This document shows, piece after piece, positions 61,055 through 64,000 of a stretch of 64,000 nucleotides of DNA. The position numbers and the translations under genes were made by a program. The notes under the pieces were generated by a model. That model did not search any database. It was not told the origin of the DNA and worked only from the letters and a program-made list of their open reading frames with translations. Source of the DNA: Pedobacter sp. (GTDB taxonomy: Bacteria > Bacteroidota > Bacteroidia > Sphingobacteriales > Sphingobacteriaceae); assembly GCA_004295885.1 (NCBI GenBank), contig SEDG01000001.1, forward strand, positions 7,942-71,941. Direction: 5' to 3'. Position 1 is the stretch's first letter. The number at the start of each line of letters is the position of its first letter.

Positions 61055-62071
61055 ATGAAGTATCAGATTATCGTTAACAAGGCCTCCAGCATTGCGAAAT
61101 ACGTGCAAATCGCAGAGGTTATCAAGAAGGACATAGAGTCGGGAAGATTGGAGAATGGCTCGAAATTACCCTCCATCAATGAATTCAGTAAAAGCCATAT
61201 CGTGGCGAGGGATACCGTCGAAAAAGCTTACAATAGCTTAAAACGTACAGGCTATATCAAAGGTGTTCCTGGCAAGGGTAATTTTGTGGACAAGGTGTAT
61301 CAGTCCCAGAAAACATTGAAAATCTTGATTATCCTTAACAAACTAAGTTCGTTCAAAAAGGAGGTTTATGAAGCATTCCTGGAGACTATGGGAAGTAGGG
61401 CAAAGGTTGACATGCAAATCCATCATTATAACGTGGCCTTCTTTAAGGATATTATTCATGAAACCGAGGGGGAATACCATTATTACGTCGTCATGCCCCA
61501 TTTCTCAGCGGATACTTCAGATCAAAGTTATCTTGAGGTGTTGAATTCTATTCAAAATGCTGGGCTAATAGTGCTGGATAAAAAGGTGCAATTGGCAAAT
61601 GAGGTCATCAACGTATATCAGGACTTTGAAAGGGATATCTTTGAAGCGCTTAGCGTTGAAAGGGAAATTCTGCAGAAGTACAGTGGCATTACCTTGATCT
61701 TCAATAAATTGACAAATCATCCGAAAGAGATCATTGAAGGGGTAAGGTCGTTTTGTGAGATGCAGGAGAAGAACTTCGACGTTATTGAAGATGCTAACAA
61801 GGTAATCCCGAAAAAAGGTACCGCCTACATTACATTAACAGATGATGAACTTGCCATGGTGCTTAAAAAGATCAAGGAAACCAAGCATAGATTGGGAAGG
61901 GATATCGGTATACTTTCGTTTAACGAAACGGTGTTGAAGGAATTACTGGGAATCACGGTGGTTAGTACTGATTTTTCTGCAATGGGCCGGATAGCTGCAG
62001 AAATGATCTTGGGGAAAAGTGTTCAAAGCATTAGGAACGAATTTCGTTTTATCAAGAGAAATTCCTTGTAG
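61055..62071 (+). CDS. GntR-family regulator (paralog of 34070..35101)
   Basis: KYVQI..LPSIN..ARDTVEKAY..GKG wHTH; GILSFNE..ITVVSTDF. ATG 61055 preferred over TTG 61010. Confidence 0.9.
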   Translation: MKYQIIVNKASSIAKYVQIAEVIKKDIESGRLENGSKLPSINEFSKSHIVARDTVEKAYNSLKRTGYIKGVPGKGNFVDKVYQSQKTLKILIILNKLSSFKKEVYEAFLETMGSRAKVDMQIHHYNVAFFKDIIHETEGEYHYYVVMPHFSADTSDQSYLEVLNSIQNAGLIVLDKKVQLANEVINVYQDFERDIFEALSVEREILQKYSGITLIFNKLTNHPKEIIEGVRSFCEMQEKNFDVIEDANKVIPKKGTAYITLTDDELAMVLKKIKETKHRLGRDIGILSFNETVLKELLGITVVSTDFSAMGRIAAEMILGKSVQSIRNEFRFIKRNSL

Positions 62072-62545
62072 TGTACGGGAATAGTGGCTGATTCTTTTAA
62101 AGCGAGATTAATTTATGTATTTAAAAGGCCTTCGGCGCTTCGTAGATCGGCTAGACGACTACGACTATCTAAGTTATTTGATGTTGGTCGTTAGGATTAC
62201 CTTACCAAGCAAGCCTTATTGGTAAATTGGAGGTTATTCCAAAAGGGCCGCATCTTATTATGTATTAGTTGAAGTTTTGGAAGTAAACAGAGCCATTTAC
62301 AGTGTCTCTTTAACCAAATTGTCAGCCTATATTGTTGGCAATTTCTTATTGGTAAATTATCTGAAATCCCACAGATTGAATGTTTTTGGGCGGAAAAAAT
62401 TTGAGAACTCGATAATTATTTTTAACTTTATCTTATAAGTAATTGCAACTAATTACAAGTTTAGAAATAAGTGAGTCATTCGGTGAGTTTTCGAATATTA
62501 CTATTTGTAAGACATTGATTTAAAGCTGTTTAGTAACTATAAGGT

Positions 62546-62562
62546 ATTCCCCTGCGGGCTAC
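62546..62562 (+). mobile_element. tRNA 3'-end fragment (tRNA-Glu-like), putative att site
   Basis: ATTCCCCTGCGGGCTAC resembles the T-arm/acceptor 3' end of Bacteroidetes tRNA-Glu as I recall it. No 5' tRNA half upstream; a terminator follows directly. Confidence 0.55.
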
Positions 62563-62563
62563 G

Positions 62564-62594
62564 AAGCCTTCAACGAAAGTTGGAGGCTTTTTTT
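62564..62594 (+). terminator. Rho-independent terminator
   Basis: AAGCCTTCAAC-GAAA-GTTGGAGGCTT stem (one G-U pair, GNRA loop) running into a T tract. Confidence 0.85.
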
Positions 62595-62678
62595 ATTAAT
62601 ATTTGCCTTGATATAAAAGTAGTGGATAAGTATCAACTTTACTATAAATGGGATTAGGTTCGCGGGTATAATCAAGCT

Positions 62679-63500
62679 TTAATTCTCAGATAAACTAATT
62701 TTGTTTCTAATCAGTCCATTAAAATGAGCGACTCTTTCGGCATATCTCCTAACTCCTAGATTTTCAAGGTTTTCTTGCATTTCCTTTTTTAAATGCAGCT
62801 GTCCGCGTCTAATAAATAAACCTGTTACTTCACAAGACCTTCTTCGGTAACAAATTTTCTTATGATTTAGATAGTAACCATTTTGTTTTATTATTTCGAG
62901 TATTTCAGGAATGTATTCTTTAAAATTCTTACTAGAGGAAAAAGCTAAGTCGTCTAAGTAAGCAGTAAATGTAATTTGCTTATTTTCACAATATGACGTT
63001 ATATTTTGAGCTGTTGTCGAAAATACAAGGTTCGCCAATGTTGCGGAAGTTGGCGCACCTTGAGGCAAGTGCCCATCAAAAGTCGTAAGTCTGGTAAGCA
63101 ATCGTGCTTCACTGCTGGAAAACCCTATCGATAGTAATGTTTGATGGACCTGAGCGTTTGTAATATTGGAAAAGTAATTTTTAAGGTCTACTGTTAAAAA
63201 GTAGGAGCTATTGATATGAACCACTGCATTCATAATATTGTTTTTTCCCTTTATACTTCCAAACATCACATCCGGCAATGGGATTTTTTGAAGTAGAATA
63301 TTTATTTCACGCTGTATCAATTTTAATTTTATATATGGTTCTTGAGTATAACGATACCTTAAAGTCCCATCGTTATTCTGTTGTGGTTTACCCCATTTTT
63401 TTTTCGCTCTTATTGTACTTTTATATAGCCCATATGATTTTCTTGTTAGGCGTTTAAGCAAGTTGTCTTCAACTGTCAAATTTAAAATGTTGCGAATCAT
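62679..63500 (-). CDS. Retron-type reverse transcriptase (273 aa)
   Basis: LKLIQ, region X NAVVH (NAxxH), DLKNYF, LPQGAPTS, catalytic YLDD and region Y VTG (CEVTGL). Confidence 0.9.
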   Translation of the reverse strand: MIRNILNLTVEDNLLKRLTRKSYGLYKSTIRAKKKWGKPQQNNDGTLRYRYTQEPYIKLKLIQREINILLQKIPLPDVMFGSIKGKNNIMNAVVHINSSYFLTVDLKNYFSNITNAQVHQTLLSIGFSSSEARLLTRLTTFDGHLPQGAPTSATLANLVFSTTAQNITSYCENKQITFTAYLDDLAFSSSKNFKEYIPEILEIIKQNGYYLNHKKICYRRRSCEVTGLFIRRGQLHLKKEMQENLENLGVRRYAERVAHFNGLIRNKISLSEN

Positions 63501-63515
63501 AATTTTCTAAAATGA

Positions 63516-63795
63516 AACCGGGTCTAGAGCTTAGGAATAATTAAAGACGCTAACTTAAGAGTACGTTTAGCGAACCTTTTTATGATTTGCATTTGTTGCA
63601 TCTTAAGCTTAAAGATTAGTATCTCAATTAACCATCGCTCGGTTCTTGATAAATTTTTGCAGTTCTTCACCAGAAGCTTTTTAAGATGCTTCCGTACCAC
63701 TTTCTTTTTTTTCATATTTATGGGATTTAGATTCCAGAGAATTTCTGGCCGCAAGAATATTTATCACCATGGCAAATCAAGAAAACGACCCGGTT
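63516..63795 (-). ncRNA. Putative retron msr-msd RNA bounded by a1/a2-like inverted repeats
   Basis: AACCGGGTC (63516-63524) and GACCCGGTT (63787-63795) form a perfect 9-bp IR. An unpaired G follows the 5' arm on the minus strand (63786). Internal stems are present, and the region lies directly upstream of the RT ATG. Confidence 0.7.
63524..63715 (-). CDS. 63-aa highly basic small protein embedded in the putative retron RNA (candidate effector)
   Basis: ATG at 63715 preceded by AT-rich TAAAT; 20 K/R vs 2 E; TAG stop overlaps the 3' IR arm by 1 nt. Confidence 0.5.
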   Translation of the reverse strand: MKKKKVVRKHLKKLLVKNCKNLSRTERWLIEILIFKLKMQQMQIIKRFAKRTLKLASLIIPKL

Positions 63796-63810
63796 ATAAG
63801 TCATTATTTT

Positions 63811-63833
63811 AGGTGCCTTGCCGCAAGGCACCT
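63811..63833. repeat. Perfect GC-rich hairpin AGGTGCCTTG-CCG-CAAGGCACCT
   Basis: 10-bp stem, 3-nt loop, 15 nt outside the 5' IR arm; no U tract on the minus strand. Confidence 0.8.
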
Positions 63834-63893
63834 TTCTGCTACGTGTTTAAAACACTTTAAAATGGATTTTTAGAAAGAGGTTTAAAGAACGTT

Positions 63894-63924
63894 CTAAGAT
63901 AAAAATTGTCCGTAAAACCTCAAA
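63894..63924 (-). promoter_or_regulatory. Bacteroidetes sigma-A-like promoter for the retron unit
   Basis: Minus strand: TTTG (63924-63921), 19 nt, TATCTTAG (63901-63894). One mismatch to TAnnTTTG, with canonical spacing. Confidence 0.5.
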
Positions 63925-64000
63925 ACCAATTGAAATAAAAACTTTAGAGATTTTTGAAAGGTATCATCGCTAATATGATTTTTTACATGATTTACGTATT

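What the first reader, a model, noticed from the sequence alone, without database searches (positions are those of the whole stretch)
63524..63715. 63-aa polycationic, probably amphipathic peptide as candidate retron toxin
Seen: MKKKKVVRKHLKKLLVKNCKNLSRTERWLIEILIFKLKMQQMQIIKRFAKRTLKLASLIIPKL, with 15 Lys, 5 Arg and 2 Glu and hydrophobic residues spaced as in helices. It fills most of the space between the two IR arms, ending at the 3' arm. Inference: a membrane-active or nucleic-acid-binding effector that standard annotation would probably miss. Lys-rich ORFs can also arise by chance in AT-rich DNA.
Basis: partly seen in the sequence, partly recalled or inferred. Interest (0 to 1): 0.7.

Follow-up and report, generated by a model that had tools for sequence, protein, structure and literature searches.

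The report
Small toxin-like gene inside retron RNA
The 63-codon lysine-rich reading frame is a real, conserved gene lying inside the structured RNA of a stripped-down Type VI retron (a phage-defence system), in the position where related retrons carry a small toxic effector protein, but this lineage lacks the usual helix-turn-helix (HTH) partner gene.

Summary
The ORF is confirmed at 63715..63524 (minus strand): 63 aa, 15 K, 5 R, 2 E, net charge about +18. Its stop codon shares a base with the 3' arm of a perfect 9-nt inverted repeat.

By itself the ORF is weak evidence. About 7% of random sequences of this composition give an ORF this long. Conservation is what decides it.
- Four loci with 60-66% identical RTs keep the same 63 codons with no indel, while the leader upstream does have indels.
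- dN/dS is 0.14-0.24 in frame, against 0.4-1.4 in the other frames.
- Every HTH-less relative examined has a 58-83-codon, mostly polybasic ORF abutting the RT.

The RT immediately downstream is a Type VI retron RT (PADLOC RT_VI, 3e-61). Two recent preprints (Retron-Vpa2, Retron-Sen3) show that Type VI retrons embed a small-protein (SP) toxin gene in a structured 'hybrid RNA' closed by an inverted repeat. That is the anatomy found here, with covariation support.

Three things differ:
- there is no HTH gene;
- there is no long msd-like stem-loop;
- the SP family is polycationic and does not match the SP_VI model.

Verdict: this is a real gene and probably the retron's toxic effector, in a new minimal variant of a known kind. 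Toxicity and how it is controlled are untested. The scan's other notes on this feature are all on this same stretch of this genome; none is on other DNA.

The parts
63894..63924 (-). Promoter-like element (TTTG, 19 nt, TATCTTAG), at the 5' edge of the block conserved with relatives
   Evidence: Read from the sequence. The conserved block shared with L018-L021 begins at 63905/63890. A TAnnTT(A/T)(A/G) box lies upstream of a conserved GTTCTTTGA-like motif in relatives. Promoter function is inferred from the known Bacteroidota -33/-7 consensus.
63843..63855 (-). Small 5' hairpin HP1 (GUGUU/AACAC)
   Evidence: Present in the MFE and centroid folds. Relatives carry GUGC..GCAC or GUGU..ACAC at the same place. 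This covariation was judged by eye only.
63811..63833 (-). [quoted passage not shown]
   Evidence: RNAalifold on 10 loci shows GC to CG compensatory changes in 4 sequences. [quoted passage not shown]
63787..63795 (-). 5' arm of the a1/a2-like inverted repeat (AACCGGGTC), followed by G 63786, a possible priming G
   Evidence: I19. Pairing probability is about 1.0 in all 10 loci. Locus L026 has ACCAAGGTT/AACCTTGGT, which gives 3 compensatory pairs. A G follows the arm in 9 of 10 loci.
63716..63786 (-). Non-coding leader. It holds the conserved UUCUUGAUUUGCCAUGGUGA motif (63783-63764) and the hairpin CCAGA/UCUGG (63748-63734)
   Evidence: Nearly invariant across 5 loci but with indels that shift the frame. 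The hairpin shows AU to GC covariation in 4 sequences. The CAUGGU motif is complementary to the ACCAUG start context in L023, L024, L025 and L034.
63524..63715 (-). 63-codon ORF plus its TAG stop: the candidate SP-type retron effector
   Evidence: One database homolog, P0001, is 63% identical over its full length. A profile search of 1.84 billion representative proteins finds 13 representatives of the family.
63637..63640 (-). 5' strand (GAGC, codons 26-27) of a long-range helix with 63527-63530 (GCUC, last codon region)
   Evidence: RNAalifold helix at columns 266-270/383-387. This locus and L024 carry GAGC/GCUC where the others carry GAAC/GUUC, a compensatory change.
63516..63524 (-). 3' arm of the inverted repeat (GACCCGGTT). 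It shares its first base with the stop codon, and 15 nt separate it from the RT start codon
62679..63500 (-). Reverse transcriptase, 273 aa, Type VI retron clade
   Evidence: PADLOC RT_VI 3e-61; the next best model is III-A at 1e-46. Pfam RVT_1 4e-17. The NAVVH, YLDD and VTG motifs can be read in the translation.

Best explanation
The ORF is a translated gene for the small-protein (SP) effector of a minimal, HTH-less Type VI retron. One transcript of about 380 nt (inferred) runs from a promoter near 63900 through two 5' hairpins, the 5' inverted-repeat arm, a 70-nt leader, the 63 codons and the 3' arm, then continues into the RT gene.

The two arms pair. A second long-range helix pairs codons 26-27 with the last codons, so the coding sequence sits inside a folded 'hybrid RNA', as in Retron-Vpa2 and Retron-Sen3.

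By analogy with those systems (inferred), the protein arrests the growth of an infected cell through its long C-terminal hydrophobic/amphipathic helix. Its production or activity is kept low until phage infection changes reverse transcription or the RNA fold.

Because no HTH antitoxin exists here, I infer that control lies in the RNA/RT/cDNA layer. The strongly basic N-terminal half (+10 in the first 20 residues) may bind nucleic acid or the anionic membrane.

Shown: gene-hood, conservation, position, RNA pairings, RT type. Inferred: toxicity, trigger and mode of control.
For: (1) The same 63 codons, with no indel, a fixed start and a fixed stop, occur in four loci whose RTs are 60-66% identical, while the flanking leader has indels.

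(2) Nei-Gojobori dN/dS is 0.14-0.24 for this locus against each relative in frame (mean 0.25 over 7 pairs). The other five frames give means of 0.37-1.08.

(3) All 15 more distant HTH-less loci examined carry a 58-83-codon ORF (128 codons in L023, where the stop is lost) that ends at or overlaps the RT start. The mirror antisense frame has stops in 13 of those 15.

(4) The RT is Type VI. It sits in a 100/99-supported clade of 13 HTH-less Sphingobacteriaceae/Chitinophagaceae RTs, nested among SP-HTH-RT loci.

(5) The small ORF of L026, the nearest outgroup to the Sphingobacteriaceae group that includes this locus, matches PADLOC SP_VI at 9e-8, and L031 matches at 7e-3. This ties the HTH-less ORFs to the catalogued SP.

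(6) The inverted repeat, HP2, the leader hairpin and an intra-ORF helix all show compensatory changes. The fold z-score is -3.6.

(7) The block conserved with relatives is only about 1.15-1.2 kb (63905..~62731) and contains no other gene, so the ORF is the only effector candidate.

(8) SP is the experimentally shown toxin in Vpa2 and Sen3.

(9) The AF2 model is a confident two-helix hairpin, the same topology reported for the Sen3 SP.
Against: No expression, proteomic or toxicity data exist for this locus.

This sub-family gives no hit to SP_VI even at E 10. Profile-profile comparison with canonical SPs reaches only 3-13% probability.

Part of the nucleotide conservation inside the ORF comes from RNA constraints (the stretch covering codons 17-24 is nearly invariant). 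That inflates apparent protein conservation.

The start region of this locus is predicted to be mostly unpaired (P paired 0.16). Translational repression by sequestering the start codon is therefore not evident here, and no antitoxin has been identified.

Amphipathicity is not significant against shuffles.
Confidence: 0.7

Rival explanations
1. The peptide is not the toxin. It is a nucleic-acid-binding regulator or antitoxin that took over the role of the missing HTH protein, for example by binding the hybrid RNA or the cDNA and gating reverse transcription. Growth arrest, if there is any, would come from something else, such as the RT product.
For: SPs of HTH-less loci are polycationic: mean net charge +13.7, and 19 of 20 are +9 or more. 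SPs next to an HTH gene are near neutral, -4 to +4. There is no HTH in the conserved unit, and the only HTH_VI hits elsewhere in the genome are generic. Mestre et al. 2020 first likened SP folds to epsilon antitoxins.
Against: The conserved unit holds no alternative effector gene. SP was shown to be the toxin in both studied Type VI retrons. The C-terminal hydrophobic helix required for Vpa2 SP toxicity has a counterpart here. The charge contrast reflects essentially one evolutionary transition, and the second HTH-less lineage (L006) is +1.
Confidence: 0.15
2. The ORF acts mainly in cis, as a leader/coupling ORF. Ribosomes reaching its stop codon melt the a1/a2 helix, and by doing so set RT translation and priming. 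On this view the peptide sequence matters little.
For: The stop codon overlaps the 3' arm, and the RT start lies 15 nt beyond that arm. In many relatives the ORF reads through the arm, giving a recurrent SRPGS motif, and overlaps the RT start. The ORF is embedded in conserved RNA helices.
Against: dN/dS of 0.14-0.24 and conserved residue patterns across 13 representative clusters indicate selection on the protein itself. Length and helix pattern are kept across lineages whose sequences no longer align.
Confidence: 0.08
3. It is a chance ORF in AT-rich msr-msd-like RNA. Its conservation would reflect RNA structure only, and no protein is made.
For: About 7% of random sequences give an ORF this long. 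The antisense mirror frame is also open in the five closest loci. The RNA shows covariation inside the ORF. There are no Pfam, NCBIfam or PHROG hits.
Against: The in-frame dN/dS is the lowest of all six frames. There is no indel in 189 nt, although the leader has indels. An ORF persists in all 19 relatives examined across RT identities of 32-66% (four close, 15 more distant), while the antisense frame breaks in 13 of the 15 more distant ones. Homologous systems translate this gene.
Confidence: 0.07

Closest known systems
Retron-Vpa2 (Type VI retron, Vibrio parahaemolyticus; Zhang et al., bioRxiv 10.1101/2025.10.22.683967)
   Same: A small-protein gene lies directly upstream of a Type VI RT and inside a structured transcript. 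The transcript's 3' end pairs back to a 5' arm, an a1/a2-like inverted repeat. The helical SP has a hydrophobic C-terminal part. Relatives of this locus also pair a leader motif with the start codon.
   Different: Vpa2 has an HTH gene between SP and RT and a long msr-msd arm (the hybrid RNA is about 470 nt, the msDNA 63/86 nt). Here there is no HTH. Only two short hairpins lie 5' of the arm, and a 70-nt leader follows it. The start region of this locus is predicted to be open, and the SP is far more basic.
Retron-Sen3 and the cl2075 lineage (Garcia-Rodriguez et al., bioRxiv 10.64898/2026.04.27.721009)
   Same: An inverted repeat flanks the SP coding sequence. A conserved stem-loop lies just upstream of the 5' arm. 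[quoted passage not shown] The SP model has two helices (here).
   Different: Sen3 relies on an HTH antitoxin that binds the RT, and it has an SL3 of about 166 nt. It is found in Proteobacteria, and its SP is 79 aa. Neither the HTH nor SL3 is present here, and the host is a Sphingobacteriaceae-like Bacteroidota.
PADLOC SP_VI (PDLC02970), the small accessory protein of SP-HTH-RT loci. I presume, but did not test, that it corresponds to Mestre's Bacteroidetes cluster cl2760
   Same: Same gene position and the same RT clade. The weak collinear similarity centres on K-x-x-K/C-x-(L/F)-S-x-x-E. The neighbouring HTH-less lineage L026 hits the model at 9e-8.
   Different: None of the 19 sub-family members tested hits the model. 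hhalign probability is 3-13%. Net charge is +14 to +19, against -4 to +4 for SPs of HTH-bearing loci.
Type I toxin-antitoxin small toxins (e.g. Hok, TisB). Comparison from general knowledge only
   Same: A small helical basic/hydrophobic peptide whose mRNA is heavily structured. Control probably acts at the RNA level.
   Different: No antisense RNA gene is evident. The partner is a reverse transcriptase. This peptide has no clear transmembrane segment (the C-terminal helix is amphipathic, GRAVY -0.17).

Membership tests
Type VI retron (Mestre et al. 2020; PADLOC retron VI) | The RT belongs to the Type VI clade and carries the retron motifs | tested here: met
   RT_VI scores 3e-61, against 1e-46 for the next type. 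The RT clusters with SP-HTH-RT loci in the tree. NAVVH, YLDD and VTG can be read in the translation.
Type VI retron (Mestre et al. 2020; PADLOC retron VI) | An adjacent Cro/C1-type HTH gene (cl2_1 / HTH_VI) | tested here: not met
   There is no ORF between the SP stop and the RT start (23 nt). The upstream neighbour is a divergently transcribed oxidoreductase-like gene. The conserved unit has no further gene. Genome-wide HTH_VI hits are generic XRE proteins, with a best E of 4e-11, and the control search also hits in 13 of 14 genomes. The literature notes that about 22% of Type VI entries lack the HTH.
Type VI retron hybrid RNA (Vpa2/Sen3) | An inverted repeat encloses the SP coding sequence and is supported by covariation | tested here: met
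   A perfect 9-nt inverted repeat. There are 3 compensatory pairs in L026 and a G-U in L025. Pairing probability is about 1 in 10 loci.
Type VI retron hybrid RNA (Vpa2/Sen3) | [quoted passage not shown] | tested here: met
   HP2 at 63833-63811, with GC to CG covariation in 4 of 10 sequences. The Sen3 counterpart is described.
Type VI retron hybrid RNA (Vpa2/Sen3) | A long msr-msd arm (msd-like stem-loop of about 60-170 nt) upstream of the SP start | tested here: not met
   Only a 70-nt leader with a 5-bp hairpin lies between the 5' arm and the AUG, and only HP1 and HP2 (13 and 23 nt) lie 5' of the arm.
Type VI retron hybrid RNA (Vpa2/Sen3) | The start codon/RBS is sequestered in a helix | tested here: inconclusive
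   The AUG is paired with P of about 1 in L023, L024 and L034, through leader CAUGGU pairing with ACCAUG. It is mostly open in this locus (0.16) and its four closest relatives (0.19-0.44).
SP_VI small accessory protein (PADLOC PDLC02970) | Sequence match to the family model | tested here: not met
   0 of 19 sub-family members hit at E <= 10. hhalign gives 3-13% probability. The L026 ORF, from the neighbouring HTH-less lineage, hits at 9e-8, so distant homology stays plausible but is not shown.
SP toxin of Type VI retrons (functional class) | A small helical protein with a C-terminal hydrophobic/amphipathic helix, encoded just upstream of the RT or HTH | tested here: met
   The AF2 model has helices 2-17 and 24-62 at pLDDT 85.6. 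muH peaks at residues 43-60. For position.
SP toxin of Type VI retrons (functional class) | Toxic when expressed alone, and required for defence | not testable with these tools
   This needs expression and phage assays.
Retron (general) | RT-dependent msDNA primed from a 2'-OH of a G next to the a1/a2 duplex | not testable with these tools
   A G follows the 5' arm in 9 of 10 loci. No msDNA data exist.

The most novel reading that the evidence does not exclude
In this HTH-less lineage the toxin mRNA may itself be the reverse-transcription template. The only RNA between the priming-type duplex (a1/a2 plus the adjacent G) and the 3' arm is the leader and the 63 codons. cDNA synthesis starting next to the 3' arm would therefore copy the SP coding sequence. 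That would yield an msDNA antisense to the toxin message, and RNase H would destroy the template. The RT/msDNA pair would then be the antitoxin or switch, replacing the HTH protein, and the polycationic SP might be titrated by the same nucleic acid.
Probability: 0.2. Interest if true: 0.8.

Novelty: new variant of a known kind. Interest (0 to 1): 0.55.

Why it matters
Type VI retrons have only just been shown to hide a toxin gene inside the retron RNA. The two systems studied so far use different control logic, and both depend on an HTH protein.

This locus belongs to a coherent Bacteroidota clade that works with only an RT, a compact RNA and a polybasic small protein, all within about 1.2 kb. 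Two questions follow directly. What restrains the toxin when there is no HTH? And where is the template when there is no long msd arm?

Annotation pipelines miss or mis-frame this gene. Such retrons are therefore likely to be catalogued as 'RT only', and the number of effector-bearing systems is undercounted. A 1.2-kb self-contained unit would also be a convenient minimal model for studying the class.

Tried and rejected
- Pfam, PADLOC, NCBIfam and PHROGs on the 63-aa protein gave nothing usable.
- Rfam on 62000-64000 gave only sub-threshold chance hits and no retron msr family.
- Foldseek against PDB gave no match with E < 1. The ESM Atlas search returned generic helical hairpins.
- hhalign of this SP sub-family against canonical SPs aligned the same region each time, but at only 3-13% probability. 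BLASTP of the L020 SP against the L026 SP gave E 1.2.
- Leader-ORF duplex search: the best partner site varies between loci and the energies are not clearly better than shuffles. The proposed 'switch' pairing (UUCUUGAU with AUCAAGAA, or UUGAUUUGC with GCAAAUCA) therefore stays a lead only.
- Complex prediction on RT plus SP returned no verdict. It is not used as evidence either way.
- The look-up of encoding contigs for P0001 returned nothing on record. The same peptide was later seen in L021.
- The upstream TTG start (76 aa) was rejected, because the extension is out of frame in L018 and L019.
- The antisense 76-aa ORF (63582-63812, + strand) was rejected. Its starts and ends vary, its dN/dS is higher, and it is broken in 13 of 15 distant loci.
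- A trans-encoded HTH_VI was sought elsewhere in the genome. Only generic XRE hits were found.

Full report
**Observation.** On the minus strand an ATG at 63715 opens a 63-codon frame ending with TAG at 63526-63524. A perfect 9-nt inverted repeat brackets it, AACCGGGTC at 63795-63787 and GACCCGGTT at 63524-63516. The stop codon's G is the first base of the 3' arm, and the RT start (63500) lies 15 nt past that arm.

As a bare ORF it is not remarkable. About 6.8% of random 500-nt sequences of the same composition contain an ATG ORF this long in one of six frames, and the antisense strand here holds a 76-codon ORF.

**Context.** The 273-aa protein encoded at 63500..62679 is a retron reverse transcriptase of Type VI. 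PADLOC RT_VI scores 3e-61 against 1e-46 for the next type, Pfam RVT_1 scores 4e-17, and the NAxxH, YLDD and VTG motifs are readable.

The window is G000:C752:7942-71941, and the contig ends 325 nt beyond it. The next gene upstream is divergently transcribed and looks like a Tat-signal Gfo/Idh/MocA oxidoreductase. The locus therefore has no room for a helix-turn-helix gene.

blastn against four related loci shows that the shared block is only 63905..~62731. It covers the promoter-like region, the RNA elements, the small ORF and the RT. Nothing downstream of the RT is shared, and the block sits in different genomic neighbourhoods in different genomes.

**Is it a gene?** RT homologues of 60-66% identity (P0003-P0006, two of them named Pedobacter) were traced to contigs L018-L021. 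All four have the same 63 codons. There are no indels, the start context is the same, and the TAG is fused to the same GACCCGGTT arm. The non-coding leader just upstream does have indels, and these put the upstream extension out of frame in L018 and L019.

Nei-Gojobori dN/dS for this locus against each relative is 0.14-0.24 in frame. The two shifted sense frames give 0.41-0.60 and about 1.0. Averaged over seven pairs, the mirror antisense frame gives 0.37 and the other two antisense frames 0.9-1.1.

The protein database holds one full-length homologue (P0001, 63% identical, identical to the L021 ORF). A profile search of 1.84 billion representatives finds 13 clusters of the family.

More distant HTH-less Type VI loci tell the same story. 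These include Mucilaginibacter, Pedobacter caeni, Ginsengibacter, Ferruginibacter, Chitinophagaceae and several Bacteroidales, with RTs 32-52% identical. Every one carries an ORF that ends at or overlaps the RT start (58-83 codons, apart from a 128-codon read-through in L023), and the antisense frame is broken in 13 of 15.

Gene callers called the wrong overlapping frame in L018, L019 and L021, and called nothing in L020 and L022.

**What is it?** Two preprints give the frame of reference.
- Zhang et al. (10.1101/2025.10.22.683967) show that Retron-Vpa2 transcribes a 'hybrid RNA' containing the msr-msd and a translationally repressed small-protein (SP) toxin gene. The transcript's 3' end pairs back to a 5' arm. 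SP alone is toxic and needs its hydrophobic C-terminal helix.
- Garcia-Rodriguez et al. (10.64898/2026.04.27.721009) show that in Retron-Sen3 SP is a constitutively made toxin neutralised by the HTH protein. [quoted passage not shown]

The present locus reproduces that anatomy. RNAalifold on ten loci recovers four elements with compensatory changes:
- the a1/a2-like helix, with three compensatory pairs in L026;
- hairpin HP2 at 63833-63811, 15 nt upstream of the 5' arm;
- a leader hairpin at 63748-63734;
- a helix between codons 26-27 and the last codons, which reads GAGC/GCUC here and in L024 and GAAC/GUUC elsewhere.

The fold of this locus is more stable than its shuffles (z = -3.6).

**Relation to the catalogued SP.** PADLOC has an SP_VI model. 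The canonical SPs of SP-HTH-RT loci hit it (1e-25 for L005). So do the small ORFs of two HTH-less lineages, L026 at 9e-8 and L031 at 7e-3.

In the RT tree this locus lies in a 100/99-supported clade of 13 HTH-less RTs that includes L026. That clade sits within a 98/97-supported clade of 20, of which 19 lack the HTH.

The sub-family containing this ORF does not hit SP_VI (0 of 19 members). hhalign against canonical SPs always aligns the same collinear stretch, residues 8-38, but with only 3-13% probability. Homology is thus supported by position and phylogeny, not by sequence statistics.

AF2 gives a confident two-helix hairpin (pLDDT 85.6), the topology reported for the Sen3 SP. Structure searches return only generic helical hairpins.

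**What is different here.**
1. There is no HTH gene in the locus, and no specific HTH_VI elsewhere in the 82%-complete genome.
2. There is no long msd-like stem-loop. Between the 5' arm and the AUG there are only 70 nt.
3. The SPs of HTH-less loci are polycationic: mean net charge +13.7, with 19 of 20 at +9 or more. Those next to an HTH are near neutral, -4 to +4. The tree shows this is essentially one transition, so it is a description and not a statistical test.
4. In L023, L024 and L034 the conserved leader motif CAUGGU pairs with the ACCAUG start context (P about 1). In this locus the start region is predicted to be open (P paired 0.16).
5. In many family members the ORF reads through the 3' arm, giving a recurrent SRPGS motif, and overlaps the RT start.

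**Mechanism.** Most likely (0.7), the ORF encodes the retron's growth-arresting effector and is expressed from the same structured transcript the RT uses. Control is exerted at the RNA/RT/cDNA level, because no protein antitoxin is encoded. The C-terminal helix would be the toxic part, and the basic N-terminal half a nucleic-acid- or membrane-binding part. Only gene-hood, position, the RNA pairings and the RT type are shown. The rest is analogy.

The rivals are a regulator or antitoxin role replacing the HTH (0.15), a cis-acting coupling ORF (0.08), and a chance ORF in structured RNA (0.07).

**Checks that gave nothing.** The RT-SP co-fold returned no verdict. The leader-ORF 'switch' pairing is not better than shuffles. 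Amphipathicity is not significant against shuffles.

**Verdict.** The kind of system is already described in 2025-2026 preprints. This locus is a minimal, HTH-less, polybasic-SP variant that has not been characterised.

Noticed in passing
window 63582-63812 (+): A 76-aa antisense ORF mirrors the small gene. The same frame is open in the four closest relatives (85-107 aa, with variable ends) but carries stops in 13 of 15 distant loci. It is probably a mirror effect of a Lys/Leu-rich sense frame.
   Followed up: yes
L023:1241-1627, L025:1257-1493, L034:1302-1535; P0124, P0126-P0129, P0131-P0132: In many family members the small ORF reads through the 3' inverted-repeat arm, which is then translated as a recurrent SRPGS motif, and overlaps the RT start. 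In this locus's sub-clade a TAG sits directly at the arm instead. One RNA element is therefore used in two reading contexts.
   Followed up: partly
L003-L009, L014, L018-L038 (small ORFs upstream of Type VI RTs): The net charge of the small protein tracks the locus architecture: +9 to +19 in 19 of 20 HTH-less loci, and -4 to +4 in 7 loci that have an HTH gene. The tree suggests this is mainly one evolutionary transition.
   Followed up: partly
L018:2225-2374, L019:2224-2388, L021:2229-2375: Public gene calls in these relatives pick a 48-54-aa ORF in the +1 frame that overlaps the leader and the N-terminal half of the conserved gene. L020 and L022 have no call at all. The conserved 63-codon gene is mis-annotated or missing in all of them.
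   Followed up: yes
L018-L021 against window 62731-63905: The 1.2-kb retron unit sits between different neighbours in different genomes: Fic and era in L018-L020, an AAA ATPase and metG in L021, and an oxidoreductase and a regulator here. No integrase or repeats were seen, so how the cassette moves is unknown.
   Followed up: no
window 62072-62678: A 600-nt stretch without a gene lies downstream of the RT. It has a strong plus-strand terminator-like hairpin plus a T-run at about 62563-62597. ARAGORN finds no tRNA there, Rfam gives only sub-threshold hits, and the stretch is not conserved with the relatives' retron loci.
   Followed up: partly
window 63598-63606 / 63681-63689: A perfect 9-nt complementarity inside the ORF (GCAUCUUAA in codons 9-12 with UUAAGAUGC in codons 37-40) is present in this locus only. 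It may be chance or a lineage-specific helix.
   Followed up: partly
G000:C752 end (325 nt beyond window 64000): The contig ends inside the divergently transcribed oxidoreductase-like gene. The assembly has 969 contigs and is 82% complete, so statements that something is absent from the genome are limited.
   Followed up: no
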